From Nitrospinales bacterium (lineage in GTDB: Bacteria > Nitrospinota > Nitrospinia > Nitrospinales > JAJDAT01): a DNA stretch of 64,000 nt. How positions within the stretch are numbered: position 1 is the stretch's first letter; every line of letters starts with the position of its first letter. Shown piece after piece: positions 18,820 through 56,048 of this stretch. The DNA is taken from assembly GCA_046757665.1 (NCBI GenBank), contig JBHHYO010000002.1, forward strand, positions 1-64,000, in the 5' to 3' direction. The notes beneath the pieces are model-generated. The model was not told where the DNA came from. It saw only the letters and a list, made by a program, of their open reading frames with translations, and did not search any database. The translations under genes were made by a program, and so were the position numbers.

Positions 18820-19001
18820 GTAATTGAATCGGGGACACAGATAACTATTCGCAACGTTCATCCCGGAATTCATACACCTACCCCGTGGGGCCTTGCAAAC
18901 CGGCAAATCGACAGGGCTTCCGCTACCGCATACCTGCATTTCGCGCTATATATAGGGGGATAAAAACGGAGACCGGAGGCCGGAGGCGGCCAACCGTGAT
19001 C

Positions 19002-19105
19002 GTCATTGCGAGGCGGCGAAGCCGACGAAGCAATCCAGAAAGGACCATTCCCACCGGGCGTGGCCCGGCTGGATCGCCGCGCCGCCGGTGGCGGCTCGCG
19101 ATGAC
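19002..19105 (+). repeat. 104-bp palindromic REP-like cassette
   Basis: Near-identical to 55764-55867; terminal arms GTCATTGCGAG / CTCGCGATGAC. Confidence 0.9.
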
Positions 19106-19344
19106 GCCGGGGCGGCGAAGAGCGAAAAACGCAAAGGAAAATCCCCCAAACCCCCTGCCTTGAAGGGGGCTTTTCTGTGTCCATCTGTGTGCCCTTCGAC
19201 AGACTCAGGGCAGGCATCGGTGGTTCAACTTTTTTGCTTTTCTCTGCGTTCTTGGCGGCTTTGCGCTGATTTCGGTATTGTAAATTTTAATCTTCAAAAC
19301 GCGGGGTTCGGCATGGGAAAATATGAAATAAAAATATAATTTAA

Positions 19345-19357
19345 TATCAAATAGTTA
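19345..19357 (+). promoter_or_regulatory. Possible IHF-binding site
   Basis: TATCAAATAGTTA matches WATCAANNNNTTR, with an AT-rich upstream tract. Confidence 0.4.
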
Positions 19358-19723
19358 CGTATAAATACTTAAACCTTTTTATAGCATGGTTTTTCCGCGA
19401 AATCCGGTGATTTTTCACCTGACGGGAGAGTTGGAAAACCGGTTGCATAACAAGGAATTGCCGGGTTTACGACCTGACGTTTCGACTATTTCGTTCCTCG
19501 TTTTTCAAAAAAATTTTTTTGCGAAAATCGGCTCCAGTCAGGCATTTACTTCATGCAATAACCGGGCTAACCACCCGAATTTTAACCCGTTCCTTCTCCT
19601 TTTACTCAAGGTAACTGTCGGTTTTGCCGTTGAATAGACAAGCCACACTATCATAATAAACGGAAAGCGGATCAAGCGCCAAATCCCGCTTTCCATAAGG
19701 ATAAAAACAGGGTCGCCACAAAC

Positions 19724-20977
19724 ATGCGTTTATTCCTGGCATTGCTTCTGATACTTTACCAAGGTTCCCCGCTAAGCGCCCAGCCCAGCTCCGGGCAAGG
19801 TGTGCCTGTTGGAGTTGCCAAAACGGTTTTGCTTTCCGCAAAATCGAAAATAGACCTTTCGGGGACGGTGCTTCCCTGGGCGACGTCCCGCCTCGCGGCG
19901 GAAACGGATGGCCGGGTGGAACGTTTGTACTTCAATGAGGGACAATATGTCAAAAAGGGAGCCTTGCTGGTTCAGTTGGACACACGCCCGCTGGAACTGG
20001 AGCGTGCCTTGGCGGTTGCCGAGAAGAAGCAGGCGGCAACCCGCCTGGAAGAACTGCAAGCCGGTTCACGAAGCGAAACCATAGATGCCGCCACGGCGGC
20101 GGTGGCGCAGACGGAAGCCCGTCTCAAGATGACTCAAATCGAACTTAACCGTACGGAAAAACTTTACCGGGAAGGCGTATTAAGCGTTCACGATTACGAC
20201 AACAAACGCGCCTTGCACGACGAAACCCTGGCTCAGTTCGCGGAAAAAAAGGCGCGACTGGAAGAAGCCGTTGCCGGGCCGCGCATCGAAAGAATCCGGC
20301 AGGCAGAGGCCGCTCTTCTCGCCGCGGAAAGGCGCATCCGCATCATTGAAGATCGAATCGAGCGTTCATTAATCCTTGCCCCCTTTGACGGTTCCATCGC
20401 AACAAAGGACACCGAAGTGGGCCAGTGGCTGGAAAAAGGCGACCCGGCTTTGACCTTGATCGCCATCAATCCCCTGAAAGTCGAGGTGCACGTGCCGCAA
20501 CAGCATTTCAACAAAATTGAACTGGGCGCAACAGCAAGAATCATCCTGGAGTTCAGCCAACCCAACTCGCCCGGCACGGCGTTTCAAGGAACAGTCATCG
20601 AAAAAATCTATTCCGGAGATGTAACGTCGCGGACGTTTCCGGTGCGCGTAAAAGTGCATCCAACCCAGGCAAAACTTGCGCCGGGAATGCTGGTTCGGGT
20701 GGAGTTTTCTCCGCAAGGCAAAACCGCCGGCAACCTTTACGCGCCCAAAGACGCGATTGTGCGAACCCCCAGGGAAACCGCCGTGTGGGTGGCGCGCGAG
20801 GACAAGGACAAGAGCATGAGAGCCTTCAAAGTCCCGGTGAAAACAGGACAACAAACCAACGGTCTGATCGCCATTCAACCGATCGGCAAACAAATCGCGC
20901 CTGGGGAATGGGTCGTCGTTCAGGGTAACGAGCGGCTTCGACCCAACACGAAAATCGAAATCCAGAAACGGTATTAG
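19724..20977 (+). CDS. RND efflux periplasmic adaptor (MFP)
   Basis: GRVERLYFNEGQYVKKG lipoyl-like half, long coiled coil, APFDG, SRTFPVRV. Confidence 0.9.
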   Translation: MRLFLALLLILYQGSPLSAQPSSGQGVPVGVAKTVLLSAKSKIDLSGTVLPWATSRLAAETDGRVERLYFNEGQYVKKGALLVQLDTRPLELERALAVAEKKQAATRLEELQAGSRSETIDAATAAVAQTEARLKMTQIELNRTEKLYREGVLSVHDYDNKRALHDETLAQFAEKKARLEEAVAGPRIERIRQAEAALLAAERRIRIIEDRIERSLILAPFDGSIATKDTEVGQWLEKGDPALTLIAINPLKVEVHVPQQHFNKIELGATARIILEFSQPNSPGTAFQGTVIEKIYSGDVTSRTFPVRVKVHPTQAKLAPGMLVRVEFSPQGKTAGNLYAPKDAIVRTPRETAVWVAREDKDKSMRAFKVPVKTGQQTNGLIAIQPIGKQIAPGEWVVVQGNERLRPNTKIEIQKRY

Positions 20978-21073
20978 CGGCGGACCGCCTTGGCGCGGGG
21001 TGTACTTCAGCAGGTTGAACCCGATGTGCAACAACCCATTCCACCGCTACCTTGAGCGGACGAAACCTATTCC

Positions 21074-24000
21074 ATGAAACTGGTCGAACAATCTCTCAAA
21101 TACGGGGTAACGGTGGCGGTAGGGGTGATTTTTATCATCATGTTCGGCCTGTTGTCGCTGTTTCGCATTCCCATCCAGTTGACACCCGAGGTCAGCCAGC
21201 CGGAATTGACCATCTACACCGAATGGCCCGGCGCCAGCCCGGAGGAGGTGGAGCGGGAAATCATCGATGAACAGGAAAAACATCTGAAATCCCTGATCGG
21301 CCTCGTGGAAATGAAAAGCCTGTCGCAAACCGGGCGCGGCGAAATTTATCTCACATTTCAAACCGGAACGGATTTGCAGGACATCCTGGTGCGCACGGCA
21401 AATTCCCTGCAACAGGTTTCCTCCTATCCGGAAGACGTCGATGAACCCGTCATCAAAACGGTCAATATTTCCGACCGGCCCATTGCCTGGTTTGTCCTGC
21501 AACCTCTGCCGGGACAGGAAGACAAGGTCAACGTCTACCATTTTCGCGATTTTGCGGAGGACAAAATCAAGACCCGGTTCGAGCGGGTGCCCGGCGTTTC
21601 AGACAGCTCGGTTTACGGCGGGAGCAGGCTGGAAGCGCATGTGACCTTCAACCCCGCCGGACTGGCCGAACGCGGCCTCAGTATCTTCCAACTCCGCGAA
21701 GCCCTGCGGCGGCAAAATCACAACGTCAGCGGCGGCGACTTCGATGAGGGCAAGAGACGGTATATTATCCGCACGGTGGGAGAATTCCGCACGCTGGAGG
21801 ACATCGAAAACACAATCATATCCGAGGTGGAGGGAAAGCCGGTTTATGTAAAAGACGTCGCCACGGTGACCCTCGGCTATGATGAACTGCGCGCCTACGT
21901 GCGGCAAAACGGGTTGCCCGGTATCGCCATCAACGCCCAGCGAGAGATCGGCTCCAACATCATCAAGGTCATGCGGGACCTCAAAAAGGCGCGGGACGAA
22001 CTCAATGAAAATCTGCTGAAACCGCTGGGGCTCCACCTGGTGCAGACCGCGGACAAAACGGAGTACATTATCCGCGCCATCAACATGGTGCGATTCAACA
22101 TCATCGTTGGCGGAACCTTTGCGATCATCCTCCTGCTGGTATTTCTACGCAGTTTTTACAGCACCCTGGTTGTTGCGCTGGCTATTCCGATCAGCGTCAT
22201 CGGGTCGTTCCTGGTCATCACGCTCATGGGCAGGACGATCAATGTCATCATGCTTGCGGGCATGGCTTTCGCCGTTGGCATGGTCGTCGATGCGTCAATC
22301 ATTGTTCTGGAAAATATTCACCGCCACCGGGAAATGGGTAAACCGGTCGCCCAGGCGGCCCGGGACGGCGCCCTGGAAGTGTGGGGAGCCATTTTGGCCA
22401 GCACGCTGACCACGCTGGCCGTTTTTATCCCGATTCTTTTCATCGAAGAGGACGTGGGACAATTGTTTCGGGACATCGCCGTCGCCATCAGCGCGGCGGT
22501 CACGCTGTCGCTGATGGTGAGCATCCTGGTAATCCCGGTTCTCAGCAAAAAACTTTTGCAATATGAATCCACACACAATCAAATCCCGACTTTCAGGAAT
22601 CTCCTGGGATTGACGCCACTGGCGGTGAAATTCAATGAGGCGGTTATCTCCCTTCTCAAAAAATTGTTTCAATCCCGGCGAATGCAAATTGCCGTCGTTT
22701 TAGTTTTGATCCTGTTGCCGATTTTCATCACGTTGCAGATCATCCCCAAAACCGAATACCTCCCCGAAGGCGACCAGAACGTCATCATCGGTATAATGAT
22801 TCCTCCGCAGGGCTATAACATTGAGGAGGCGCACCGCATCGGAAGGGAAATGGAAGCCGGCTACCGTTCTTATTGGGAAACGGAAGCGGGAAAGGAAAAA
22901 GAAGCCGGCCTCGAAGGCCCGGCGGTGCGCAACTTCCTGTTCATCGGCACCGGAGGGAGCTTGTTCACCATCGTCAAGGCAAAGGACCCCGCGCGCGCCA
23001 AGGATTTGATTTTGCCGTTGAAGAGGGAACTGAAAAAAGTTCCGGGCATGATTGCCATCACCCGTCAGCTGTCGCTTTTTTCCAGCGCGTTTCGCGGTTC
23101 ACGCGGTATCGAAATCAATATTCTGGGACCCGACCTGGTTAAATTGACCACCCTCGCGCGAAATGCTTTTTTCAAACTGAAAAAAATCATGCCGGGCGCG
23201 CAGATCCGCCCCGTCCCAGGCATGGAGCTGGGGCAACCCCAAATTCAGGTGCTACCCAAATGGGAAGAAGTTGCGGATATGGGAGTGAATGTATTTGAGT
23301 TGGGTTACTCCGTCTCCGCCCTGGTGGACGGCGTTTACGCGGATGAAGTCTATCTGGACCCGGACAAGTTGAACGTAACCTATTTGCCGCGTGACGGAAT
23401 CGACCTGATCCTCAAAAGCCGCGACTCCGATATCACCCGCACCCAGGAAATCGATACCGCCATGGTAAACACACCGACGGGACAAACCGTTCCTCTAGGC
23501 AGTATCGCCACTACCGTGGAAACCGTCAGTTCGGAGCGTATTCAACACCTCGAACGCGACCGGTCCATTACCCTGGAGGTACTGCCACCGGCCAACTTGC
23601 CCCTGGAGGAAGGCATCGACCTGGTCAGAACGAAGATCATTCAACCCCTCAAGGATGATGGAACACTGACGGGTGGATACTCCATTCAATTGACGGGAAA
23701 CGCCGACAAACTGGAACGCACCCGGCAAGCCATGTCGGGAAACTTTGTCATGGCCATAATCATCACTTACCTTTTGCTGGCTGTTCTCTTCCAGCACTGG
23801 GGCTATCCGTTGATCATCATGCTGAGCGTCCCAATGGCCGCGGTGGGCGGCGTTTTCGGACTCTGGCTGATCAACCGCTTTGTCCTGCAACCCCTGGATG
23901 TGCTGACAATGCTGGGGTTCATCATCCTCATCGGCGTGGTCGTCAACAACGCGATACTGATCATCTATCAAAGTCTGAACAATCTGCGAAGCGGAGAAAT

Positions 24001-24265
24001 GACCCCGCGTGACGCCATCCTGGAAAGTGTCCGCACCCGCATCCGTCCCATCTTCATGAGCACGTTTACCAGCATCTTCGGCTTGATGCCGCTGGTGGTC
24101 CTGCCCGGAGCGGGAAGCGAGATTTATCGGGGGATCGGGACCGTAATTCTCTCCGGATTATTTTTCAGTATGCTGTTTACGCTCATCCTCATTCCCTCCC
24201 TGCTGAATCTCAGCATGTCGCTGAGAAAGGAAAAAAGACAAGCGATGGAAACATCGCCTTTATAG
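21074..24265 (+). CDS. RND efflux permease (AcrB family)
   Basis: 1063 aa; GMVVDASIIVLENI, GVVVNNAIL, RIRPIFMST. Confidence 0.93.
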   Translation: MKLVEQSLKYGVTVAVGVIFIIMFGLLSLFRIPIQLTPEVSQPELTIYTEWPGASPEEVEREIIDEQEKHLKSLIGLVEMKSLSQTGRGEIYLTFQTGTDLQDILVRTANSLQQVSSYPEDVDEPVIKTVNISDRPIAWFVLQPLPGQEDKVNVYHFRDFAEDKIKTRFERVPGVSDSSVYGGSRLEAHVTFNPAGLAERGLSIFQLREALRRQNHNVSGGDFDEGKRRYIIRTVGEFRTLEDIENTIISEVEGKPVYVKDVATVTLGYDELRAYVRQNGLPGIAINAQREIGSNIIKVMRDLKKARDELNENLLKPLGLHLVQTADKTEYIIRAINMVRFNIIVGGTFAIILLLVFLRSFYSTLVVALAIPISVIGSFLVITLMGRTINVIMLAGMAFAVGMVVDASIIVLENIHRHREMGKPVAQAARDGALEVWGAILASTLTTLAVFIPILFIEEDVGQLFRDIAVAISAAVTLSLMVSILVIPVLSKKLLQYESTHNQIPTFRNLLGLTPLAVKFNEAVISLLKKLFQSRRMQIAVVLVLILLPIFITLQIIPKTEYLPEGDQNVIIGIMIPPQGYNIEEAHRIGREMEAGYRSYWETEAGKEKEAGLEGPAVRNFLFIGTGGSLFTIVKAKDPARAKDLILPLKRELKKVPGMIAITRQLSLFSSAFRGSRGIEINILGPDLVKLTTLARNAFFKLKKIMPGAQIRPVPGMELGQPQIQVLPKWEEVADMGVNVFELGYSVSALVDGVYADEVYLDPDKLNVTYLPRDGIDLILKSRDSDITRTQEIDTAMVNTPTGQTVPLGSIATTVETVSSERIQHLERDRSITLEVLPPANLPLEEGIDLVRTKIIQPLKDDGTLTGGYSIQLTGNADKLERTRQAMSGNFVMAIIITYLLLAVLFQHWGYPLIIMLSVPMAAVGGVFGLWLINRFVLQPLDVLTMLGFIILIGVVVNNAILIIYQSLNNLRSGEMTPRDAILESVRTRIRPIFMSTFTSIFGLMPLVVLPGAGSEIYRGIGTVILSGLFFSMLFTLILIPSLLNLSMSLRKEKRQAMETSPL

Positions 24266-25198
24266 CTCAACCACCCTTTCGTACGCGCCCAGATTGACTT
24301 TCAATCCATTCTCAAGACTGCGCGACCGGGGAACGGCAAAGGTTCCGTTCAGGGTTATTGCAAGTACGCTCTTAAAGTTTCGATATTCTTCATCGGAATA
24401 AATGGCACAGGAATTTTCAAGAAGCTCATCCAGGTCTCTCTTGTCAAAAACGATTTTCCCCGTTTCATTTTCAAAGGCCTTCTCCACCGCAACAGTAAAG
24501 GGAATCACTCCCTCCTCCACGACCTGGCAACTGTTGCTTAAAAATCCCCGATGGAACAAACCCGATTTTACGACGTGCTCTATTACTCCTCCCGCCGCTT
24601 GCTCCGAGCCGTTGCCGAAGTTGGCCGGGCATATTATCGCGTCGGATTTCAGGTCCCGGGCATCGAACAGTGGAAGCACGTACAGGTCCGAGCAGATGAA
24701 AAAGAAGGCCGCATACGCCGCGCCATTTTGCCTCAGTGTGACCTTGTTGAGATAGGAATAGGGTGTCACATCCATCCTGGGAAAAGATTCGTCCCGATGG
24801 CGCAGTTCAAACGATTGCGGAGTTATTTTCGCCTGCGGCGAATAAATCCGCCCGGTTCTTGAGAAAATAAAAAGCGTGTTGTAATTGGTTTTCGGAGAGG
24901 CGTGGGGCAGGTCTTCGCCGGGATGGTTCAGGGAAGTGATCAGGGTCACGCCATGGTTTACAGCGGCCTTGGATAATTCATTATAAGCTTTTTCGGACCC
25001 CTTGACGGTATACGCTCCATACTCAGGGAAGAGGATAGCGGTACCCGGTGCGGCGGCGGAGGCTTTTTGAAGAATCTCCTCAAGTTGTTGCTCCTCCCGC
25101 GCCATCCTGAATGTTTTTGGAACTATTTTTATAGGCATGAGAAATGCCGGCGGCGGTTTTTCAGGAAATCTTCCCGGACCTCTTATAATACTTTTCAC
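24260..25198 (-). CDS. Divergent nitrilase/carbon-nitrogen hydrolase superfamily protein
   Basis: Glu-Lys-Cys triad motifs LFPEY, QAKIT, FICSDL; GTG start overlaps the ACAD stop. Confidence 0.65.
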   Translation of the reverse strand: MKSIIRGPGRFPEKPPPAFLMPIKIVPKTFRMAREEQQLEEILQKASAAAPGTAILFPEYGAYTVKGSEKAYNELSKAAVNHGVTLITSLNHPGEDLPHASPKTNYNTLFIFSRTGRIYSPQAKITPQSFELRHRDESFPRMDVTPYSYLNKVTLRQNGAAYAAFFFICSDLYVLPLFDARDLKSDAIICPANFGNGSEQAAGGVIEHVVKSGLFHRGFLSNSCQVVEEGVIPFTVAVEKAFENETGKIVFDKRDLDELLENSCAIYSDEEYRNFKSVLAITLNGTFAVPRSRSLENGLKVNLGAYERVVEL

Positions 25199-26550: not shown

Positions 26551-26599
26551 TTCACCCCGTCATCGGAAACGCCGCGGATTATTCCGGATTGGACGCATC

Positions 26600-27193: not shown

Positions 27194-27196
27194 AAT

Positions 27197-28609: not shown

Positions 28610-28783
28610 ATCAAACCCCCCTCTTGTTTTAATTTTATCACGCAGTCAATCCAGGATTTGGGTTTTTAAACGATTTTTATTTCCTCCGGACGGCAATTCT
28701 TCCGCAAATGCTTTATAATGAAAAAGAGCTCCTCAAAGAGAAATAAATACCCTGTGGAAGAAATTTTTCTTGGGAGTCTAAAC

Positions 28784-30451: not shown

Positions 30452-30462
30452 TATCGGTTCTC

Positions 30463-31866
30463 ATGAAAACTATTTCACCAAGACCCTTTATGGATAAATT
30501 TGAAACACAGATCACCAATTATGTGCACGGCTTAACTTATCGCGACCTGACGCAAGATGCCGTCCAAGCCGCGAAAGAACGGTATCTGGACAGTTTGGCC
30601 GTTGCGCTTGCCGCATTTCATACCCCTCCGGTGAAAGCCATGAGGAAGTTTGCTCTTGAATCTTCCTCGGCAACAGGCGCAACGGTACTGGGAACCAGGC
30701 ACAAAGCTCCGGTTGATTACGCAACGGTTTACCTGGGCACGATGATCCGGGCGCTTGATTGGAACGACACGTATCTCAACCGGGAGCCGGCCCATCCGAG
30801 CGACAACATTGCCGCCTGTCTCCCCGTGGCGGAAGCGAACGGTAAAACGGGAAAAGACCTGATACTGGCAACTGTTGTTGCATACGAATTACATTGCCGG
30901 CTTTGCGACGCCGCAGGGATTAGAAAAAAAGGATGGGACCACGTGACCTACGGTTCCGTGTCAAGTTCCGCGGCCGCCGCAAAGTTGATGGATTTCTCCA
31001 AGCGGCAAATCCGCGATACACTGGCCATTGCCGTCACGACCGGCAATTACCTGCGGCAAACGCGGGTCGGCACGATTTCGCAATGGAAAGCCGCCGCATT
31101 CGCCCAGGCCGCCCAAAATGCCGTGCGCGCGGCGCTTTACGTCAAACACGGTTTCACCGGGCCCAGCGACATCTTTACTGGCCAACACGGATTTATCAAT
31201 CAGATCACCCTAGGAGAGTTTGACCTTGCCGGGCAATTCGCCGGACCCGACAGCAAGGATTTCAAGATCGCCGATACCTACATCAAATTTTTCCCCGCGG
31301 AATATCACTCCCAAAGCGCCATATGGGCGGCCCTGCAACTCAGGGAGTCCATCGGCCATGAACGCTTGCGGGAGATCGCAAAAATTCATATTGAAACCAG
31401 TTTTCATTCCTATGAGATCATCGGCAAGGAGCCGGCCAAATGGGCGCCGGAAACAAAAGAAACCGCCGACCACAGTCTGCCCTATATCGTGGCCGCCGCT
31501 CTGATAGACGGAAACATCACGCTTCAGCAGTTCGACGATTCTCATTTGAATAATCCCGAACTTCGCTCCCTGATGCAAAAAGTTACTGTCGCCGAAAAAA
31601 AGAAGTACACGGAAATTTATGGAAAATCGTTTCCCAACAAGGTTATCGTCACACTGGCAAACGGCGCCGTCCATGAAAAGGAAGTTTTGGATCCCAAAGG
31701 CCATCCCAACAACCCGTTGACACCAAAAGAAATTGAAACCAAATTCAAAACAGCGGCCGCTCCACTATTGAGCGAAGAAAAACAAAATCAAATAATCGAT
31801 TCCATAGGGTCCCTCGAGAAGATCGAAAACCTGACCGACTTGATGCGGCTGTTGGAGGTCAAATAA
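30463..31866 (+). CDS. prpD: 2-methylcitrate dehydratase (MmgE/PrpD)
   Basis: LDWNDTY, HPSDNI, GWDHV, KFFPAEYHSQ, ETADHSLPY. Confidence 0.88.
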   Translation: MKTISPRPFMDKFETQITNYVHGLTYRDLTQDAVQAAKERYLDSLAVALAAFHTPPVKAMRKFALESSSATGATVLGTRHKAPVDYATVYLGTMIRALDWNDTYLNREPAHPSDNIAACLPVAEANGKTGKDLILATVVAYELHCRLCDAAGIRKKGWDHVTYGSVSSSAAAAKLMDFSKRQIRDTLAIAVTTGNYLRQTRVGTISQWKAAAFAQAAQNAVRAALYVKHGFTGPSDIFTGQHGFINQITLGEFDLAGQFAGPDSKDFKIADTYIKFFPAEYHSQSAIWAALQLRESIGHERLREIAKIHIETSFHSYEIIGKEPAKWAPETKETADHSLPYIVAAALIDGNITLQQFDDSHLNNPELRSLMQKVTVAEKKKYTEIYGKSFPNKVIVTLANGAVHEKEVLDPKGHPNNPLTPKEIETKFKTAAAPLLSEEKQNQIIDSIGSLEKIENLTDLMRLLEVK

Positions 31867-31867
31867 A

Positions 31868-48210: not shown

Positions 48211-48222
48211 AAGGACGATGTA

Positions 48223-49230
48223 TTACAACCAGCGATGATTCTTATACCAATCAAGCGTTTTCGCCAGTCCCGCATTTAAATCATAACGTGGCTGAAATTC
48301 ATATTGATCCATGAATTTTTCGCATGATGCGGTCCAGGAGCTTTGACAAATATCGATCAGCCTCTGCCTGTCCAGCAGAGCGGGTTTCGTGCCGAACCGC
48401 GCCAGCGTTTCGCAAAGCAATGCCAAAGGCATCAAGGCACCTTCCGGAACCCTCAGCGATCGCGCCTTCACACCAAGAGCCCGCATGGCCGCCTGAGCCA
48501 CATCCTCCCATGAGTACGTATTGCCGTCGGTGACAAAAAAAATATTCTCCTCTTGCCGGGGAGCGGCCGCGGCCATGACCATGGCGCGCACCAGGTCGGC
48601 AACATAAATCAAGGAAAGGTCGCGCCGGGTTCGACCGATTTTAATGTTCCATCCGCGACTCACCGTCCTGAGATAGACGAAAAAATTGTTCTCCCTGGGA
48701 CCGTAAACCACGGGGGGGCGTAGAATGACGATGGGCAGGGAAGAGGAAAACTGTCGGGCGATTTCCTCCCCGGCAAGCTTGGATTGTCCATAAAATGTAA
48801 GAGGACGGCAGGGCGTTTCCTCATTAACCGGTCGATCCGGCTCTGCCGGGCCAACGGCCGCCAGACTGCTCAAGTGAACGACCGCCTTGAGCCGTTTTCC
48901 ACGGGCCACGCAGTTGCTGTAAAACGGAGAGCAGAGGTCGGCATTGATTCGGAAATATTCTTGCCGCGTTCTGGCTTGCGTCAATCCCGCGCAGTGAAAC
49001 AAATATTCCGCATCTTCCAGGCCATCGCCAAGCCGTTCCAATCGAGTCAGGTCCGCAGTATGAAGATGTACCCGGGAGGAATCGAGCCAGCGAAGGTCAC
49101 TGGTCTTGCGAACCAGACAATGGACCGTGCAACCGAGGCTTAGGAGATAATCAACCAGATGACTGCCGATAAACCCGGACGCGCCTGTGACCAGCACAGT
49201 GGCGGGGTCAATTTTCGCAGGTTCGTTCAT
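48223..49230 (-). CDS. NAD-dependent epimerase/reductase (candidate ceramide reductase, CerR-like)
   Basis: TGASGFIG, SSLAA, YGQSK, RPPVVYGP; operon context. Confidence 0.8.
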   Translation of the reverse strand: MNEPAKIDPATVLVTGASGFIGSHLVDYLLSLGCTVHCLVRKTSDLRWLDSSRVHLHTADLTRLERLGDGLEDAEYLFHCAGLTQARTRQEYFRINADLCSPFYSNCVARGKRLKAVVHLSSLAAVGPAEPDRPVNEETPCRPLTFYGQSKLAGEEIARQFSSSLPIVILRPPVVYGPRENNFFVYLRTVSRGWNIKIGRTRRDLSLIYVADLVRAMVMAAAAPRQEENIFFVTDGNTYSWEDVAQAAMRALGVKARSLRVPEGALMPLALLCETLARFGTKPALLDRQRLIDICQSSWTASCEKFMDQYEFQPRYDLNAGLAKTLDWYKNHRWL

Positions 49231-50332
49231 AGATGCGGTGCCGCTTGTAAACATCGGCGCCCATTCGATAAAGAGGAGCCAACATCGCCTGGTTATCTTC
49301 CAAAATCCAGGACATTTCGCACAACGCAACTTTTTGGTCTAGGCACCGCCTATAAGTCTTGTGATAAAAAGAAACATCAATTCCCAAGCGTTGGAACTTC
49401 TTTTTTACACCGAGGGTCAGAACCCGGTAGGAATCGATTTTCTTCCTGTTCATTAAAAACCTGGCCCATCCAAAGGGAAAGAGCTTGCCGTCCAGGGTTT
49501 TGAGCACTTGATTAATGTCGGGAAGAGTCAGGGAGAAACCCACCGGTTCATCCTTAATTTCCGCAATCAAACAAAACTCGGGCTCAATGAAATGTTTCAT
49601 CTCATCGGCGGCAAAGTAAAATTCGTCGCGAGTCATGGGCGTGAACCCCCAGTTGCGCTCCCAGGCGGAATTATAAATTTCCCATAAAACGTCTATTTCT
49701 TTTTGAAACTGATCCATCCGCAGACAGCGCACGGTAAACCGGTTTCTTTTTTGAATTCGGACCATCGCTTGCTCCAGGTACTCCGGCATTCTTATGAAAG
49801 GCGCGATTTTCAGGCAAACAAGGTCTTTGGCTTTTGTCAACCCCCAGCCTTCCAGCAGGCTCGAATAATAAGGAGGATTATAAGGTATCCCCAACATGGG
49901 AGCCTTGTCGAATCCCTCTACAAGCAGGCCGCATTCGTGGTTGATGGAGAGGTTCATAGGGCCCAGAAGTTTTTTGAGTCCCTTCGCCCGGCACCCTTCA
50001 TAGACGACATCCAGCAACCGGTCCGCCACCTCCCGGTCGTCAATGGACTCAAACAGGCCGAAAAAACCGACTTCCTGCGAGTGAAACGTATTGTGTGCGT
50101 GATCTACGACAAAGGCAATCCGTCCCACCGGTTGCCTGTTTTCCCCCAGAGCCAGAAAAAAATCGACTTCGGCATGGTCGAAGAACGGGTTGGCTTTTGG
50201 ATCCAGAAATTTTTTGCGTTCCACAAGCAAGGGAGGAACCCATCGGGAGTCATTCTTGTAAATTTCCCAAGGCAACTTGATGAATGCGTGCTTGTCTGCC
50301 GGCGTTTCGACCTTTTGAATTTCCGGGCGCAT
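49208..50332 (-). CDS. GNAT-fold N-acyltransferase (candidate bacterial ceramide synthase, bCerS-like)
   Basis: WVPPL, NPFF, GRIA, GFFGLFE, GLLVEGF, YNPPYY, NWGFTPMT, EMSWILEDN. Confidence 0.8.
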   Translation of the reverse strand: MRPEIQKVETPADKHAFIKLPWEIYKNDSRWVPPLLVERKKFLDPKANPFFDHAEVDFFLALGENRQPVGRIAFVVDHAHNTFHSQEVGFFGLFESIDDREVADRLLDVVYEGCRAKGLKKLLGPMNLSINHECGLLVEGFDKAPMLGIPYNPPYYSSLLEGWGLTKAKDLVCLKIAPFIRMPEYLEQAMVRIQKRNRFTVRCLRMDQFQKEIDVLWEIYNSAWERNWGFTPMTRDEFYFAADEMKHFIEPEFCLIAEIKDEPVGFSLTLPDINQVLKTLDGKLFPFGWARFLMNRKKIDSYRVLTLGVKKKFQRLGIDVSFYHKTYRRCLDQKVALCEMSWILEDNQAMLAPLYRMGADVYKRHRIYERTCEN

Positions 50333-51660
50333 TACCGCGGAATAATTCCCAGCTCGGTGCCGAACTTCTTGAAAGCCGACAGCACCCGGTCGAGGTCTTC
50401 CCGAGTATGGGAAGAGGTGTAACTGGAACGAATCATGGCATTGAGGGGGGGAACTACAGGGGATACCGCCACGCCCGCAAAAACTCCATCATTGAACAAA
50501 AGCTGGTTGAGATACAAAGTCAAGGCTTCGTCGCCAATCTTGATGGGAACGATGGGAACCTGATTGTTGTTGATCTGGAAACCCATCTCGAAAAATCCCT
50601 TTTTGATATAAGAGGTATTTTCATGCAACCGGTCGATGCGTTCGGTTTCCCGGCTCATAACGTCGAGGGCGGCGATCACTCCGGCAACCGACGCAGGCGG
50701 CAAGGCCGCCGTAAAAATAAACGCCGAGGCCTTGTGGCGGATAAACTCGGTGACCTTGGAATTGGCCGAAACGAAACCACCAATGGACCCCAGGCTCTTG
50801 GAAAAAGTCCCGACATAAATGTCGATTTCCTTTTCCAGGTCGAAATAACTTGTCAACCCTTTTCCACGGTCTCCCATAACGCCCAGCCCGTGAGCCTCAT
50901 CCACCAGAACGCTGGCCCCATAGTCTTTCGCCAGCTTGACGATGCCGGGAAGATTGGCCACATCACCGCTCATGCTGAACACACTGTCCGTAATAATCAG
51001 TTTGCCGTCAACATCGGCATACCTCTTCAGACAGTACTCCAGATGATCCATGTCATTGTGCCGATAGCGCACGGTCTTGCCCGGCGCAATGGCGCACCCC
51101 TCATAAATGCTGGCATGATTTTCGCGGTCCGAAAAAGCAATGTCCTTGCGTCCCAGCAAACACGAGATGGTCCCCTGATTGGCCTGGAATCCGGTGGACA
51201 TAACAATCGTGTCCTCGCGGCCGAGAAAATCCGACAACGTCTTTTCCAACGTCCTGTGCAGGGTAAGGGTGCCGTTGAGAAACCGACTGCCGGTACAACC
51301 CGCGCCGAATTTTTCCAGCGCCTTTGTCGCCGCGGCAATTACGCGGGGATCCTTGGTCAAGCCCAAATAATTATTGGTCGAAACGGTTATAACGTCCCTG
51401 CCTTCGATAACCACATGAGCGCCATCCATCTCCTCGGTCTCGCGGAAATACGGATAAATGCCCAAATCCTTGGCTTGATCGGGAGCGTCATAACTGAAAC
51501 ACTTGGAAAGAATGCCCTCGCCTTCCTTGGTCAGAAGCCGCAAGTGCGCATTCTCAAAATCGAACTTCTTCTTTAATAAAGAAATAATTTTGTCACGTTT
51601 CAGATGAGGCGGGGTGTCTTCCGGAGTTTCGTCCAGAACCGGCTGATGAAGATTTTTCAC
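50332..51660 (-). CDS. spt: Serine palmitoyltransferase-like alpha-oxoamine synthase
   Basis: YPYF, TNNYLGL, GCTGSRFLNGT, NHASI, DEAH, GTFSKS; heads the GNAT-reductase operon. Confidence 0.8.
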   Translation of the reverse strand: MKNLHQPVLDETPEDTPPHLKRDKIISLLKKKFDFENAHLRLLTKEGEGILSKCFSYDAPDQAKDLGIYPYFRETEEMDGAHVVIEGRDVITVSTNNYLGLTKDPRVIAAATKALEKFGAGCTGSRFLNGTLTLHRTLEKTLSDFLGREDTIVMSTGFQANQGTISCLLGRKDIAFSDRENHASIYEGCAIAPGKTVRYRHNDMDHLEYCLKRYADVDGKLIITDSVFSMSGDVANLPGIVKLAKDYGASVLVDEAHGLGVMGDRGKGLTSYFDLEKEIDIYVGTFSKSLGSIGGFVSANSKVTEFIRHKASAFIFTAALPPASVAGVIAALDVMSRETERIDRLHENTSYIKKGFFEMGFQINNNQVPIVPIKIGDEALTLYLNQLLFNDGVFAGVAVSPVVPPLNAMIRSSYTSSHTREDLDRVLSAFKKFGTELGIIPR

Positions 51661-52241
51661 GGCTTCGAAATTATCCTTTTAGGTTGGAGTTTAAATTTGA
51701 GAAACCAGGAGCTTCTCTGAAGGCTCGACAGACACGGTTTCTCAGGATCTTTTTCTATTCACCGGAAACTCTTTAATTATTTCCCAACGCAAATCACGCA
51801 AGGGTAACATTAAATGCCCGTTTTGACAAGCGAAACTATAAATTTTCGCAAATCATCGCTTAATTTAATTAAATTTAACTGCAACTCAAAAGCCGATTCG
51901 TTAACATTCCCGAAAACATCCAACTACAAATTTCCCTCCACGCCCCTTTTCCGGGCCGTTGAACAACGACTCAAAAATCATCTTCACCAAAAACCTGCCG
52001 CACTTTCAACGAAGCGACCCGGTTTGCGCCGCACTTTTTCCTTAACGGCATCTTGCCGCTATTTATGACCCCGCCCACGCAAGAACTTTCCGGCGCGGAG
52101 GTTTTATAAAACCCGCCAAGGGAGACTTATGAAATCCGAAGGCTTGTAAAGGAGCAGATGAAACGAGAAAGCGGCCGGGAAAAAACCGCGACACGAATCC
52201 GCGAAAGACCCGGACGCCAAACGGATAAGGCTGGCACGAAA

Positions 52242-52886
52242 TTAAAGTTTTTTGACCTGATTCTTGACCTGATAATAGCGGAAAAACGCGCCCATCATTA
52301 TAATAATCAACAGCGCCAAAACCATCAACGCCCCTTCCATGATAAGCGTCAAGGACAGAGGCATATTTTCCAGAATCCATACGACAATTTGATGCAACCC
52401 ATACCAGGAGTCGGGGTCGCTAAGCCAGGCCTGGAGCGCCGTACCCTGAAACAGGTAATTAAACGCAACGATAAGAGGAAACTCGGTCCACGTGCCGCTT
52501 TGCAACCAGAGAAACCCTTGATACCCCAGCAGGAAAAATCCGGAAAAAAATACCAGCGACGCCGACACAACGGCTATCCCGCCGACAAAGCCAAGAAAAA
52601 AATCCAGCGGCGTCAGCTTTCGCACAATTTCTTTAGACTCCGCCCAGCCTTTCAGGGCCATTTGTTTCGCGCGGATTTTCAGACGTTCCTTCAGCTCCAC
52701 GCAAACCAGTATCGCAGGCTCAACCCAATGGGTTATCTCCGCGATCCAGCGGGAACCATTGAACCCTCTTTCATAAAATTTTCTTTCCGACATGGGATTG
52801 CCCTCCCCGTATTTGGAAACCGCGGGATTGCGGCTTTTTAACCTGGATCTTTCTTTTCGGTGGCGGTTCATCATTTCTCTACTCAA
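52242..52886 (-). CDS. Hypothetical membrane protein
   Basis: Multiple hydrophobic helices; start uncertain (may be 52793). Confidence 0.6.
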   Translation of the reverse strand: MSREMMNRHRKERSRLKSRNPAVSKYGEGNPMSERKFYERGFNGSRWIAEITHWVEPAILVCVELKERLKIRAKQMALKGWAESKEIVRKLTPLDFFLGFVGGIAVVSASLVFFSGFFLLGYQGFLWLQSGTWTEFPLIVAFNYLFQGTALQAWLSDPDSWYGLHQIVVWILENMPLSLTLIMEGALMVLALLIIIMMGAFFRYYQVKNQVKKL

Positions 52887-53065
52887 CCTGCTCCTCTCGA
52901 CCGGAGCAAACGATCATGATCCAATCCATTTACAAGTATAGAACCATTATCATTATTTTCAACAAAAAGCATCTGCTTTATAAAATCCCGCTTTCAACTC
53001 CATACCGGGAACTGTGCCGGCCCGCAGGCCGGAAATATAAATTTAATCAAATTTAAACAATATTA

Positions 53066-53093
53066 TTGACATTTATTTAAAAATATCTATACT
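53066..53093 (+). promoter_or_regulatory. Near-consensus sigma70 promoter with no convincing downstream CDS
   Basis: TTGACA-16 nt-TATACT in an AT-rich context. Confidence 0.6.
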
Positions 53094-53099
53094 ATATAC

Positions 53100-53190
53100 A
53101 GATTGTATGTCCTCCTGTATTTGGACCCGCTTGTTTGGCCTCCTTCCCCCCCTGACAAGCGGGTCTACCTATTTGTAACCCCAAATTTTT
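53100..53190 (+). ncRNA. Candidate small RNA
   Basis: 11-bp perfect stem GACCCGCTTGT/ACAAGCGGGTC with a C/U-rich loop, downstream of the orphan promoter. Confidence 0.4.
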
Positions 53191-53239
53191 CAAACCGTAA
53201 TGCCCCTGTTTGCCAAAACCGGCAACGCTTTGGCAATCA

Positions 53240-55294
53240 TCAGCGGGGGCTGGCGGCGATGTTGCCGCCGTCAACGGTGATTACGCTTCCGGTGGTCTTT
53301 TCCGCCAGGGCAAGGTGCAAAAATCCCTCGGCCACGTCGGTATCGTAAACTTCCCGCGCCAGCAGGTTGTTCTTAAAATATTCATCGGCCTTCAAACCCC
53401 GCGCGCCGGCCCGCTCGGCGATAACCCGCGGCGAAAACAGGCCCGTCCGAACCCGGTCCGCGTTCACGGCATTCGACCGGACGCCCTCCTTGCCGTAGTC
53501 CAAGGCATATTGCTTGGCCAGGGCGACCACGGCGGCCTTGGGCAGGGCGTAGGGACCGAAGTCCTTGCCCGGATTGAAAGCCGCCTTGGAAGCGTTGAAC
53601 AATAAAACGCCGCCGGTTTTTTGCGCCAGAAAAATCCCGACCGCCCGCGCCGCCAGGCTCTGGTGAGCGAAAAAATTCAGATCGAAACTTTTCCGCAACA
53701 CCGCGCCGTCCAGTTGCCCGATCCTCCCCTGAACCGCGTTGCCGGCATTGGATATCAGAATGTCCAGCCCCCCGTAAGCCGTTACCAGTTGGTCGAACGA
53801 CTCCGCAACGGCTTCCTCATCGGTAACGTCGAGGACACAGGTCGTGACGCCGACGGCGGATTCCTCTTCGATGGTTTGCCGCGCCGCGACGAGCCTGGCT
53901 TCGTCCCGGTCCACCAGAAACAGGTTGGCGCCGTTTTTGGCGAACAGCCGGGCGGTGGCCAATCCGATCCCCGATGCCGCGCCCGACAGATAAACCACCC
54001 TCCCCTGAAGTTTCGCCGGCTTGCTCTTGCCCAGTTTGGCCTGCTCCAGCGACCAGTATTCCATGTCAAACAGATCGGCATCGTCGAGCGGCGCAAAACT
54101 TCCCACGCGGAACGCCTTTCGCACGGTGTCGATGGTGTGCTCGTAAATGTCCGCGGCAATACGGGTTTCCTTCGTCGTTTTCCCAAGAGTCAACAGCCCC
54201 AGCCCGGCGACGAGAACGACCCGCGGCAAGGGGTCCAGCTCCTTCTTGTCAACCCCCTTGGCTTCCCGGTTGGACATAAAGTACCGGTGATAATTTTTAA
54301 TGTAACTCTCCAGGGCGGCGGCAATCTCCTGCCGCAATGCTTCCTCATCGTCCAGCGACTGCGGATTCAACAGCAACGGTTTTTGCTTGGTGCGAATCAC
54401 GTGATCCGGCGTCGCCGTGCCGATTTGCGACCAGACGGCGCACTCCTTGCTGGAAGCGAAATCCCGTGCCGCCTCGCTTTGCCGATGATGCGCCACCCAG
54501 GACGCCCCCGACTGTTTCCGGTACAAGCCGCGCAACAACGGGCCGATTTTTCGCAGGATTTCCCCCGCGTCGGCGGAAGCAACCGAAATGGGCGTCAGCT
54601 TCTTCTCCGCCTTGCCGGCAATATATTTCTCCGCCCGCGCCACCGCCTCGATGTGGTAGTCATAACTTTCCCGGGCGGTTTCGGCAAACGTGAACAATCC
54701 GTGATTGATCAGCACCAGGCCCTTGACGCCGGGATTTTTCTCATAAGCCTCGGCGGCGGCCTTGGCGAGGGCAAACCCCGGCATGATGTAAGGCACAACC
54801 CCCAGAAAATCGCCGAACACCTCCCGGCACAGCGCCTCGGCGTTCGGCTGGTTGGCGAGAACCAGAATCGCGTCGGCGTGGGAGTGGTCGACGAACTTGT
54901 GCGGCAGAAAAGCGTGCAACAGCGTTTCCACCGAGGGATTCGGCGACTTGGCGTCCAGCAAGTGAGTGCGCTGGTCGTTGACCATGGCCTCGTCACTGAG
55001 ACTGCCCAGCTTTCTGAGCTTCAGCAGGTAATCGAGTTCGACCCCCGGCAAGCCCGGCGGTTCCAGAGTGTCCAGGTCCCAGCCGCTACCCTTGACGTAA
55101 AGCGCCCGCACCTCTTCCCCCACCCGGTTTTCGATCACCGACTTTACCGAGGTATTGCCGCCGCCATGTAGCACCAGAGCGGGGTCCGAACCGATCAGCC
55201 GGGACGTGTACACCCGCAGAGCGATGTCCTCGGAATAATCGGCGTATTTTTTCTTGAAAGCCTCTGCTTCTTCATCTTTCCATCGATTTTGCAT
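53240..55294 (-). CDS. Bifunctional class II aldolase/short-chain dehydrogenase (RhaEW/YuxG-like)
   Basis: LHGGGNTSVK, PSVETLLH, HSHAD, TPDHVIRTK, FDMEYWSLEQAKL, SGAASGIG. Confidence 0.9.
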   Translation of the reverse strand: MQNRWKDEEAEAFKKKYADYSEDIALRVYTSRLIGSDPALVLHGGGNTSVKSVIENRVGEEVRALYVKGSGWDLDTLEPPGLPGVELDYLLKLRKLGSLSDEAMVNDQRTHLLDAKSPNPSVETLLHAFLPHKFVDHSHADAILVLANQPNAEALCREVFGDFLGVVPYIMPGFALAKAAAEAYEKNPGVKGLVLINHGLFTFAETARESYDYHIEAVARAEKYIAGKAEKKLTPISVASADAGEILRKIGPLLRGLYRKQSGASWVAHHRQSEAARDFASSKECAVWSQIGTATPDHVIRTKQKPLLLNPQSLDDEEALRQEIAAALESYIKNYHRYFMSNREAKGVDKKELDPLPRVVLVAGLGLLTLGKTTKETRIAADIYEHTIDTVRKAFRVGSFAPLDDADLFDMEYWSLEQAKLGKSKPAKLQGRVVYLSGAASGIGLATARLFAKNGANLFLVDRDEARLVAARQTIEEESAVGVTTCVLDVTDEEAVAESFDQLVTAYGGLDILISNAGNAVQGRIGQLDGAVLRKSFDLNFFAHQSLAARAVGIFLAQKTGGVLLFNASKAAFNPGKDFGPYALPKAAVVALAKQYALDYGKEGVRSNAVNADRVRTGLFSPRVIAERAGARGLKADEYFKNNLLAREVYDTDVAEGFLHLALAEKTTGSVITVDGGNIAASPR

Positions 55295-55382
55295 ATCAGG
55301 AAAATAGCAAAACTCCGCATAAACTTAAAGATAAAAGCGGGGACGATGAAAACCGCCCGCCTGACCGAGCTCGCCCGCATTC

Positions 55383-55413
55383 CTGTCATGGTGAGCCCGT
55401 CGAACCATGACAG
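55383..55413. repeat. REP-like palindrome (GTCATGGTGAGCCCGTCGAACCATGAC)
   Basis: Self-complementary; same family as CCCTTCGACAGACTCAGGG at 19192-19210. Confidence 0.7.
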
Positions 55414-55415
55414 CA

Positions 55416-56048
55416 CCTGACTGGAGCCGGTTTTCGCAGAAAAAAAATTTTGAAAAAACGAGGAACGAAATAGTCTAAATGACAGGTTATAAACCCGGAA
55501 AACCCTTGTCATGCAACCGGTTTTCCAGCTCTCCCGTCAGGTAAAAAATCAACGATTTTCGCGGCAAAACGGCCCAAAAACCGGATCGAATTTTTCCTTG
55601 TATCCATATGACTTTAAATAACTTGTAAAGACAGGTTTTGGCATGTCGAACCCCGCCATTTGAAGATTAAAATTTACAATACCGAAATCACCACGGAGTC
55701 ACAGAGACACACAGAAAAGCCCCCTTCAAGGAGAGACCTTTGCATAAGTGTACTGGTTTGATTGTCATTGCGAGGCGGCTCAGCCGACGAGGCAATCCAG
55801 AAAGGACCATTCCCACCGGGCGTGGCCCGGCTGGATCGCCACGCCGCCGATGGCGGCTCGCGATGACACCGAAGTTGATTTCCATGGCGTGGTGGCGCGG
55901 ACTTTCCAGTCCGCGCATGGGCAGGCTGGAAAGCCTGCCCCACCATTTCAGGGCCACCGCAGGGAACAGACATGTCTGTTCCCTGCTTCCCGCGGTCTCC
56001 CGTCTCCGGGTTTTATCCCCCTACATATAGCGCGAAATACAGGTATGC
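55416..56048 (-). repeat. ~633-bp non-coding dispersed element, copy B
   Basis: Inverted homolog of 18928-19542. Confidence 0.85.
55764..55867 (+). repeat. 104-bp palindromic REP-like cassette
   Basis: Near-identical to 19002-19105. Confidence 0.9.

What the first reader, a model, noticed from the sequence alone, without database searches (positions are those of the whole stretch)
18928..56048. Two ~620-bp non-coding elements in inverted orientation bracket a 36-kb accessory region
Copy A (18928-19542, +) and copy B (55416-56048, -) share four ordered blocks: GCATACCTGYATTTCGCGCTATATRTAGGGGGATAAAA; TTGAAGGGGGCTTTTCTGTGT; TGATTTCGGTATTGTAAATTTTAATCTTCAAA; and a ~150-bp block (19389-19542 vs 55416-55570) ending GGCTCCAGTCAGG. 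The spacers are unrelated or hold REP cargo. There is no conserved ORF, transposase, clear TIR or TSD. I do not recognise the element. It could be a new non-autonomous mobile unit, a large structured RNA or a chromosomal landing pad. The pair encloses the RND, catabolic and sphingolipid genes, which may be coincidence.
Basis: partly seen in the sequence, partly recalled or inferred. Interest (0 to 1): 0.78.

Follow-up and report, generated by a model that had tools for sequence, protein, structure and literature searches.

The report
Forty-copy non-coding repeat, not a bracket
The two look-alike stretches are real, but they are just two of about forty copies of a previously undescribed non-coding repeat scattered between the genes of this bacterium, so their position around the 36-kb region is coincidence, while the repeat family itself looks conserved by selection.

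Summary
In detail: copy A (18874-19542, +) and copy B (56098-55416, -, plus a 56-nt tail) share the four ordered blocks. The bracketing reading does not hold. The same genome (2.97 Mb, 160 contigs) has 30 near-full and 12 partial copies of the right block and about 40 of the left block. Pairs 14-47 kb apart, often inverted, occur on other contigs too.

The element is modular: a 100-bp left block, a cargo slot filled with nested hairpin repeats, a 305-bp AT-rich right block, and 0-3 tail modules. Whole units were copied with sharp ends, with no target duplication and no long terminal inverted repeat. All 29 copies examined are intergenic, with no orientation bias.

I found it only in this lineage and in two related metagenome contigs. 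It matches no Rfam family, shows no RNA fold, covariation or coding signal, and no known IS end matched.

About half the right-block columns are about 97% identical among copies, while the rest are about 56%. Spacing is fixed to within 3 nt. An orthologous copy in a relative keeps the conserved columns but drifts elsewhere at the synonymous rate.

Best reading (about 0.5): a formerly mobile, non-autonomous element whose blocks are protein-recognition sites on DNA. Its function is untested.

The parts
18874..18965 (+). Copy A, left block. Begins ACA-CCTACCCC and holds the conserved core TACCTGCA-N5-GCGCTATAT.
   Evidence: About 40 copies in the genome. The left boundary is shared by whole-unit paralogue pairs.
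18958..19235 (+). Copy A, cargo slot. It holds CGGAGRC heptamer repeats (about 18958-18985), a REP (about 19000-19115), a terminator-like hairpin 19151-19169 followed by a T tract, and a second hairpin repeat.
   Evidence: REP about 85-90 hits; hairpin. Cargo differs between copies and between orthologues.
19236..19542 (+). Copy A, right block. AT-rich, with fixed spacing; ends in CCAGTCAGG.
56011..56098 (-). Copy B, left block.
55721..56010 (-). Copy B, cargo slot. It holds heptamers, hairpin repeats, the same REP as copy A in the opposite orientation, and a terminator-like hairpin 55734-55720.
55416..55720 (-). Copy B, right block.
55360..55415 (-). Copy B, tail module: a hairpin repeat plus ...GCGGGCG..CGGTCAGG.
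   Evidence: This module type forms a cluster of 7, whose listed members nearly all lie straight after an element's right end.

Best explanation
Copies A and B are ordinary members of a lineage-restricted family of about 40 non-coding composite elements. Each is 0.42-0.75 kb, or up to 1.2 kb with cargo. They lie in a Nitrospinota genome; that taxon label comes from earlier scan notes and was not tested here.

Anatomy of a unit:
- a 100-bp left block;
- a cargo slot that tolerates any insert and collects nested REP-type hairpin repeats;
- a 305-bp AT-rich right block with rigid internal spacing, ending in CCGGTCAGG;
- 0-3 tail modules that each end in the same octamer.

Shown: the family exists. 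Whole units were copied to new intergenic sites with sharp ends and without TSD or long TIR. The sequence is not coding and not a stably folded RNA. About half of the right-block positions stay nearly invariant while the rest diverge at about the neutral rate, also between orthologous copies.

Inferred: the element is, or was, a non-autonomous mobile element moved in trans by an enzyme not identified in this assembly. Its conserved blocks work on DNA as a phased protein-recognition platform, much like a transposon end or an attP-type site. The candidate blocks are:
- a 20-bp imperfect palindrome;
- an IHF-like site;
- the hexamer CCTGAC twice direct and once inverted at the terminus;
- a 12-bp palindrome at the right end.

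That platform is now kept in place by purifying selection, which implies some use to the host or to the element. Its position around the 36-kb region is chance.
For: Copy number and dispersal:
- 40 matches in the own genome.
- 43 merged right-block loci and 35 left-block hits.
- nhmmer finds 30 near-full hits plus 12 fragments at E<1e-4, and the next hit is at E=0.18.
- 23 of 29 long copies have a left block 70-800 bp upstream in the same orientation. A diverged left block was found for a 24th.

Copied as a unit: whole-length paralogue pairs share the cargo and stop at -3 and at the right terminus. C17/C9 are 88% identical over 618 bp, C3/C9 84% over 656 bp, and C1/C95 84% over 534 bp.

Genomic context: 29 of 29 are intergenic, and flank orientations are mixed.

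Lineage limits:
- 1 of 40 relatives hit by blastn, and that hit is two 22-nt matches.
- 7 of 119 other Nitrospinota genomes gave only single 20-26-bit profile hits.
- 0 and 5 chance hits in the species collection.

Presence and absence in a relative: L033 holds the orthologous copy. L034 holds a copy where the own contig C25 has none.

Selection and spacing:
- In the orthologue pair, family-conserved columns are 139/147 identical and variable columns 112/137. Fisher p=8e-4, with conservation defined on the other 26 copies.
- Third codon positions of 13 flanking genes are 78% identical.
- Median paralogue identity is 97% in conserved columns and 56% in variable columns.
- Anchor distances are 113-116 and 184-187 nt.

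Not RNA and not coding.

Cargo is dynamic: REP units differ between orthologues.
Against: No mobilising enzyme was found. The assembly (97.6% complete, draft) has no Y1 or TnpB family member. The Y2 search found nothing, but its positive controls also failed. The single IS110-family gene has unrelated ends.

No clean empty site was recovered. The one polymorphic site is on a contig that ends inside the element.

No paralogue pair is closer in variable columns than the orthologue pair, so there is no sign of copying since that split.

Purifying selection in place is not what a purely selfish non-autonomous element predicts. It rests on one orthologous pair.

Mosaic copies exist (for example L010 and L025), so exchange between copies occurs and some concerted evolution cannot be excluded.

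Protein binding is inferred from motifs only. The IHF consensus is recalled, not tested, and its core varies in about 10 of 29 copies.

No expression data exist, so an unstructured RNA is not excluded.
Confidence: 0.5

Rival explanations
1. Multicopy non-coding RNA genes. The left block would be a promoter (TATAT box), driving a short RNA across the heptamers and REPs to the mid-element hairpin and T tract. Alternatively, or in addition, the right block would be transcribed, with its invariant pyrimidine-rich 22-mer (containing TTCCTC) acting as an anti-Shine-Dalgarno seed.
For: There is blockwise purifying selection in place. A terminator-like hairpin with a T tract lies just before the right block in both window copies and in many others. 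The most conserved stretch is an unpaired, C/U-rich 22-mer.
Against: No sigma-70-like promoter was called in the left block. There is no fold signal on either strand, no supported consensus structure and only weak covariation. There is no Rfam hit. An unstructured RNA does not explain the rigid spacing across variable segments. Forty copies would be unprecedented for a trans-acting sRNA (recalled).
Confidence: 0.2
2. A purely selfish, decaying MITE-like family with no function. On this view the conserved blocks only reflect what the mobilising enzyme needed in the source copies, plus concerted evolution between copies.
For: The family is dispersed, intergenic, orientation-neutral and lineage-specific, and it is copied as a unit. 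Mosaic copies show exchange between family members.
Against: The orthologous copy keeps 139/147 conserved columns while variable columns drift to 82% (112/137), close to third codon positions at 78%. Conversion tracts long enough to matter would also homogenise the variable segments, yet these are 56% identical. Indels are almost absent in the right block but common in the cargo.
Confidence: 0.15
3. Portable regulatory cassettes: an upstream palindrome (activator site), an IHF bend and a sigma-54 -24/-12 promoter firing rightwards into the neighbouring gene.
For: Both window copies carry TGG-N8-TTGCAT, and a gene starts 122-182 bp downstream on the same strand. rpoN is present. The palindrome, the IHF-like site and the motif are spaced as in such promoters (recalled architecture).
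Against: GG-N8-TTGC occurs in only 10 of 29 copies, and the strict form in 5 of 29. 18 of 29 copies face the 3' end of the downstream gene. The TTGC is half of a small conserved hairpin.
Confidence: 0.08
4. One reading: the inverted pair delimits, mobilises or inverts the 36-kb accessory region as a composite unit.
For: The two copies are inverted, and the interior has lower GC (46-51%) and patchily distributed genes.
Against: About 40 copies exist, and similar pairs occur on four other contigs. The GC edges lie 3-5 kb inside the copies. The two copies are only 78-79% identical in the right block, so they are not a recent duplicate pair.
Confidence: 0.03

Closest known systems
REP / BIME mosaic elements of enterobacteria and Pseudomonas, including the IHF-binding RIP/BIME-1 type (recalled from the literature)
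   Same: Both are strictly intergenic, present in tens of copies and built as a modular mosaic. Both have a host-factor-type site inside, are tolerated at gene ends, and carry nested hairpin repeats.
   Different: BIMEs are built from 35-40-bp palindromic REP units and depend on a RAYT (Y1) transposase. Here the defining blocks are 100 and 305 bp, AT-rich and non-palindromic. REPs are only cargo, and no Y1 gene was found.
MITEs such as Correia/CREE, ERIC, RUP and Nezha (recalled)
   Same: Both are non-autonomous non-coding units copied whole to many intergenic sites, with subfamilies.
   Different: This element has no terminal inverted repeat beyond a 6-7-nt resemblance, no target-site duplication and no long hairpin fold. 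It is 3-5 times larger. It shows conservation in place.
Ends of IS200/IS605-, IS110- or tyrosine-recombinase-type elements and their non-autonomous derivatives (PATEs, CIMEs); lambda attP as a phased nucleoprotein platform (recalled)
   Same: Both have asymmetric ends without TIR or TSD, a body that tolerates cargo between two end blocks, and short recognition motifs repeated direct and inverted. Both have an IHF-like site, and spacing matters more than sequence between blocks.
   Different: No subterminal hairpins are conserved. No TnpA or TnpB was found. The one IS110 copy has unrelated ends, and no direct-repeat core was seen at the two boundaries.
LDR and QUAD/Sib long intergenic repeats of E. 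coli (type I toxin-antitoxin loci; recalled)
   Same: Both are 300-530-bp intergenic repeats first seen as unexplained repeats. They turned out to be functional loci kept by selection.
   Different: Those encode a conserved small hydrophobic peptide plus an antisense RNA and number 4-5 copies. Here the only recurrent small ORFs (19 or 31 aa) are hydrophilic, intact in 7 of 19 subfamily-B copies (10 counting read-through forms) and 6 of 10 subfamily-A copies, with no codon periodicity.
Nested hairpin repeat families noted earlier by this scan in other Nitrospinota genomes (e1-1090465, e1-956558, e1-2302310)
   Same: They occur in the same phylum. The small GC-rich hairpin repeats that fill the cargo slot and tails here are of that kind.
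   Different: Those are 70-175-nt hairpin units. The element here is a larger, AT-rich, non-hairpin scaffold in which such units are nested. No look-alike of the scaffold is on record in the scan.

Membership tests
MITE (DDE-transposon derived) | Terminal inverted repeats of about 10 bp or more | tested here: not met
   The left end begins ACACCTACCCC and the reverse complement of the right end begins CCTGACCGG, so only a 6-7-nt resemblance exists.
MITE (DDE-transposon derived) | Target-site duplication flanking each copy | tested here: not met
   The flanks of copies without tail modules show no direct repeat.
MITE (DDE-transposon derived) | Short non-coding unit present in many copies and copied whole | tested here: met
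REP / BIME | Built from 20-40-bp imperfect palindromes with a conserved 5' tetranucleotide | tested here: not met
   The scaffold blocks are not palindromic and do not fold. Only the cargo is REP-like.
REP / BIME | A RAYT (Y1 transposase) gene in the genome | tested here: not met
   PF01797 gave 0 matches in the 97.6%-complete draft, and the controls rang in 6 of 14 genomes. A draft assembly cannot prove absence.
IS200/IS605-derived element or omega-RNA locus | TnpA/TnpB present, subterminal hairpins, a structured right-end RNA | tested here: not met
   no TnpA/TnpB; no fold; no Rfam hit.
Rfam RNA families / large structured RNA | Match to a covariance model, or covariation-supported structure | tested here: not met
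   0 hits at gathering score over the window apart from two cobalamin riboswitches elsewhere. 0 hits at E<=1 on a compact copy. Covariation is no better than shuffles for the long-range helix and weak for the local one.
Type I toxin-antitoxin repeat loci (LDR, Sib) | Conserved small hydrophobic ORF | tested here: not met
Sigma-54 promoter cassette | -24 GG and -12 GC at fixed spacing in all members, facing a gene | tested here: not met
   10 of 29 copies have the motif. 11 of 29 face a gene start.
Composite transposon or invertible segment bounded by the two copies | The pair is unique or near-identical, and the segment is variable as a unit | tested here: not met
   About 40 copies exist. The pair is 78-79% identical. 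The GC edges are offset. Inversion itself could not be tested.
Phased protein-binding DNA platform (transposon end or attP-like) | Conserved short blocks at fixed distances with free sequence between them | tested here: met
Phased protein-binding DNA platform (transposon end or attP-like) | Demonstrated binding of a recombinase or accessory proteins | not testable with these tools
   This needs EMSA, DAP-seq or pull-down.

The most novel reading that the evidence does not exclude
The family is not junk. It would be about 40 selected loci of a new kind: a transposon-end or attP-like DNA platform of about 400 bp with rigid spacing. A Nitrospinota lineage would have spread it through its chromosome and now keep it in place, for example as docking sites for an architectural or regulatory protein complex. 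The same platform would serve as the preferred landing pad for the phylum's nested hairpin repeats.
Probability: 0.3. Interest if true: 0.7.

Novelty: new variant of a known kind. Interest (0 to 1): 0.45.

Why it matters
The finding removes a false lead: a mobile or invertible 36-kb island bounded by special elements. In its place is a defined, lineage-specific repeat family with unusual properties for a bacterial interspersed repeat:
- It is large and AT-rich.
- It has no TIR, TSD or hairpin.
- Half of its positions and all of its spacing are kept over a divergence that has randomised the rest.

If the conservation in place holds in more genomes, this is a tractable case of a spread non-coding element being retained for a function. 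It would also explain why assemblies of this uncultured marine nitrite-oxidiser lineage break at the same places.

Tried and rejected
- Structured RNA, rejected. The RNAalifold consensus is -5.5 kcal/mol. The single-copy folds are no better than shuffles on either strand. My own column-pair scan gave only low-complexity pairings. The named helices were tested.
- Small protein, rejected. A 31-aa ORF (subfamily B) and a 19-aa ORF (subfamily A) start at the same ATG. They are broken in many copies and show no third-position excess. No period-3 signal occurs anywhere in the right block.
- Sigma-54 cassette as a family feature, rejected.
- A DnaA-box-like octamer occurs in only some subfamily-B copies (read). 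It was not pursued.
- Distant relatives. The weak profile hits in 7 other genomes were inspected. Two lie inside a TonB-type receptor gene and two in one orthologous divergent promoter region that does not align with the element, so I judged them chance.
- L035 from the metagenome scan shares only the 20-mer.
- The five hits of the gapped pattern are in unrelated phyla, at about the chance expectation.
- Mobiliser search. No Y1 or TnpB family member was found, and the Y2 search was uninformative because its controls failed. IS110 gave one gene with unrelated ends. The three tyrosine recombinases were not followed up.
- Expression. No RNA holder is listed for this stretch.
- Laid DNA contigs of three runs break inside the repeat. 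They show neither an empty site nor an inversion joint at the element ends, which proves nothing either way.
- Literature. One full-text search (Nitrospina + intergenic + repeat; 12 papers) turned up nothing. A term search inside the N. gracilis genome paper (PMC3578206, passages only) found no mention of such repeats.
- I did not search ISfinder, because no tool offers it.
Full report
**1. The observation**

I read both stretches and aligned them. They are separated by spacers that do not align or that hold a REP-type repeat. The last block ends in ...GGCTCCAGTCAGG at 19542 (+) and 55416 (-).

Family alignments move the left ends outward:
- Copy A runs from 18874/18877 to 19542.
- Copy B runs from 56098 to 55416 and is followed by a 56-nt tail module (55415-55360) that ends in the same CGGTCAGG.

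Rfam at gathering score finds only two cobalamin riboswitches elsewhere in the window.

**2. Not a pair but a family**

The window is contig C2:1-64000 of a 2.97-Mb, 160-contig, 54.8% GC genome that is 97.6% complete.

- A 286-bp query from copy A's right block finds 40 matches in that genome at 72-92% identity.
- After merging there are 43 right-block loci and 35 left-block hits.
- A profile of 29 aligned copies gives 30 near-full hits and 12 fragments at E<1e-4. The fragments mostly lie at contig ends, and the next hit is at E=0.18.
- 23 of 29 long copies have a left block 70-800 bp upstream on the same strand. A diverged left block was found for a 24th copy (C88), which is the most compact unit at about 390 bp.
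- Most of the remaining copies are cut by a contig end or are 5'-truncated.
- A few left blocks stand alone.

Contigs C39, C9, C6 and C17 also carry two copies 10-47 kb apart, three of the four inverted. With about one copy per 70 kb, two copies 36 kb apart are expected by chance.

The lower-GC stretch inside the region spans about 24-52 kb, so its edges lie 3-5 kb inside the copies. A PrpD-like gene in that stretch is patchily distributed, in 11 of 40 relatives. So part of the interior may indeed be accessory, but the elements do not delimit it.

**3. Anatomy**

From the alignments a unit has four parts.

- **Left block, about 100 bp.** It begins (ACA)CCTMCCCC and holds the nearly invariant core TACCTGCA-N5-GCGCTATAT.
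- **Cargo slot.** It starts with 2-4 heptamer repeats (CGGAGRC, or another heptamer in five copies). It is filled with different hairpin repeats in different copies. One copy even holds a fragment of a DDE transposase gene.
- **Right block, about 305 bp, AT-rich.**
- **Tail modules, 0-3 per copy.** Each ends again in CGGTCAGG.

The terminal heptamer GGTCAGG occurs 162 times between genes. Clustering the sequence upstream of these sites shows that the recurrent tail-module types (clusters of 12, 7 and 3) lie mostly straight after an element's right end, with at least one listed exception.

A hairpin with a T tract sits just before the right block in both window copies.

The right block contains these features:
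- an imperfect 20-bp palindrome around AAATTTTAATCTTCAAA;
- a stretch resembling an IHF site (the consensus is recalled, and its core varies in roughly a third of copies);
- CCTGAC twice in direct orientation and once inverted at the terminus;
- an invariant 22-mer;
- an A/T tract;
- a 12-bp palindrome.

**4. How it spread**

The best paralogue pairs are similar over the whole unit including the cargo. Similarity stops at 3 nt before CCT and at the right terminus, or after a shared tail:
- C17/C9: 88% over 618 bp;
- C3/C9: 84% over 656 bp;
- C1/C95: 84% over 534 bp.

So the composite was copied as a unit.

There is no target-site duplication and no inverted terminal repeat beyond a 6-7-nt resemblance. 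The 7 nt outside the left end show only a weak GCCGACA-like preference.

All 29 copies examined lie between my ORF-based gene calls. Flank orientations are mixed: 7 convergent, 10 tandem, 3 divergent, 9 at contig ends. 18 of 29 right ends face a gene's 3' end, so the element is not a dedicated promoter.

**5. Distribution**

- Blastn in 40 relatives finds nothing but two 22-nt matches.
- A sequence profile (model R1) over 119 other genomes of the phylum gives seven single hits of 20-26 bits. On inspection these lie inside a receptor gene or in an unalignable promoter region.
- Pattern scans of the species collection give 0 hits and 5 chance hits.
- Plasmid records match only the REP cargo.
- The metagenome scan found two contigs of relatives that are 82-91% identical in genes.

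L033 carries the orthologous copy. It joins what are two contig ends (C15 and C129) in this assembly. L034 carries a copy with two tails in an intergenic region where the own contig C25 has none. L034 ends inside the element, so the empty site is not precisely defined.

**6. Conservation pattern**

This is the most informative result.

| Comparison | Family-conserved columns | Variable columns |
|---|---|---|
| All paralogue pairs, median identity | 97% (136 columns) | 56% (148 columns) |
| Orthologue pair (own C129 versus L033) | 139/147 identical | 112/137 identical |

- For the orthologue pair, conservation was defined on the 26 other copies, and Fisher p=8e-4.
- Third codon positions of 13 flanking genes are 78% identical. 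The variable columns therefore drift at about the neutral rate while the blocks are held.
- Distances between anchors vary by only 3 nt across the aligned copies that hold both anchors (27-28 of 29): 113-116 and 184-187 nt. The cargo slot, by contrast, gains and loses whole repeats even between orthologues.
- No paralogue pair is closer in variable columns than the orthologue pair. I therefore see no copying younger than that split.
- Mosaic copies show that segments have been exchanged between members.
- Conversion tracts long enough to preserve the blocks would also homogenise the variable segments, and that is not seen.

The selection argument rests on one orthologous pair and should be repeated.

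**7. What it is not**

- **Not a folded RNA.** The consensus fold is -5.5 kcal/mol and z-scores are +1.0 and -0.44. The CCTGAC...GTCAGG pairing is invariant and shows no covariation above shuffles. A local helix is paired in 67.5% of cells with marginal support.
- **Not in Rfam**.
- **Not coding.** The recurrent small ORFs are often broken and show no codon periodicity.
- **Not a family-wide sigma-54 promoter.** 10 of 29 copies have the motif, although both window copies carry a strict match and rpoN is present.
- **No mobiliser identified.** No Y1 or TnpB gene was found, the Y2 search was uninformative because its controls failed, and the one IS110 gene has unrelated ends.

**8. Best reading**

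The facts fit a non-autonomous element that was copied whole by a trans-acting enzyme that leaves no duplication. Two end blocks flank a slot that tolerates any cargo.

Short invariant blocks, rigid spacing, an IHF-like site, recognition motifs in direct and inverted orientation, and the absence of any RNA or coding signal point to a DNA-level, phased protein-binding platform of the kind seen in transposon ends or attP sites.

Conservation in place then means the platform is still used, by the host or by an element-encoded function elsewhere. I put this at about 0.5. The rivals, in order:

| Rival | Confidence |
|---|---|
| Unstructured multicopy ncRNA family | 0.2 |
| Functionless decaying family with concerted evolution | 0.15 |
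| Regulatory cassette | 0.08 |
| Bracket or inversion reading | 0.03 |

No RNA data exist for this organism. The available DNA runs are short-read contigs that break inside the repeat.

**9. Comparison and novelty**

The element works most like the end regions of recombinase-moved elements, and it shares the ecology of BIMEs and MITEs. It fails the defining tests of MITEs (TIR, TSD), REP/BIMEs (palindromic units, RAYT), IS200/IS605 derivatives, type I toxin repeats and any Rfam family.

Earlier notes of this scan describe small nested hairpin repeats in other Nitrospinota. Those correspond to the cargo here, not to the scaffold, and the scan holds no look-alike of the scaffold.

One literature search and one paper's passages gave no description of it.

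I class it as a new variant of a known kind (interspersed non-coding repeats), with moderate interest.

Noticed in passing
window 3138-3329 and 7706-7867 (+): Two cobalamin riboswitch aptamers (103 and 80 bits) lie 4.5 kb apart, upstream of the region studied.
   Followed up: no
window about 24000-52000: GC falls to 46-51%, against 54-59% in the flanks and 54.8% genome-wide. The stretch holds acyl-CoA metabolism genes, a B12 mutase, MMPL and an aminotransferase. A PrpD-like gene at 30463-31866 is found in 11 of 40 relatives and in 0 of 5 of the same family. This may be an acquired island whose edges do not coincide with the repeat copies.
   Followed up: partly
G000 C6:57819-58989: One element copy carries a fragment of a DDE-type transposase ORF, plus GGGAACGAGG-like short repeats, in its cargo slot. 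The slot therefore accepts more than REPs.
   Followed up: no
G000 C101 about 6100-6800 (-), C3 about 52000-52880 (-), C54 about 16700-17400 (-): Left blocks stand without a right block. One is about 280 bp upstream of a flgC-like gene on the same strand. One is next to a tRNA gene on the other strand. One is next to a small helix-turn-helix-like gene.
   Followed up: no
right ends of many copies, e.g. window 55360-55415; L034:10620-10870: Tail modules of three or four types each end in ...GCGGGCG..CGGTCAGG. In this genome they mostly occur immediately after the element's right terminus, as if the terminus were re-created after each insertion.
   Followed up: partly
window 19000-19115 and 55765-55865: The REP in the cargo slot has about 85-90 BLAST hits in the genome. 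Its hairpin core also matches unannotated DNA on two Novosphingobium plasmids at 95-100% over 38-40 nt.
   Followed up: no
G000 C124:4868-5311: This is the only IS110-family transposase gene in the assembly (361-aa frame, at a contig end). Its flanks show no similarity to the repeat family.
   Followed up: partly
window 19176-19192 and 55608-55592 (approx.): Both window copies, but only 5 of 29 family members, carry a strict sigma-54-type TGG-N8-TTGCAT. A gene starts 122-182 bp downstream on the same strand.
   Followed up: partly
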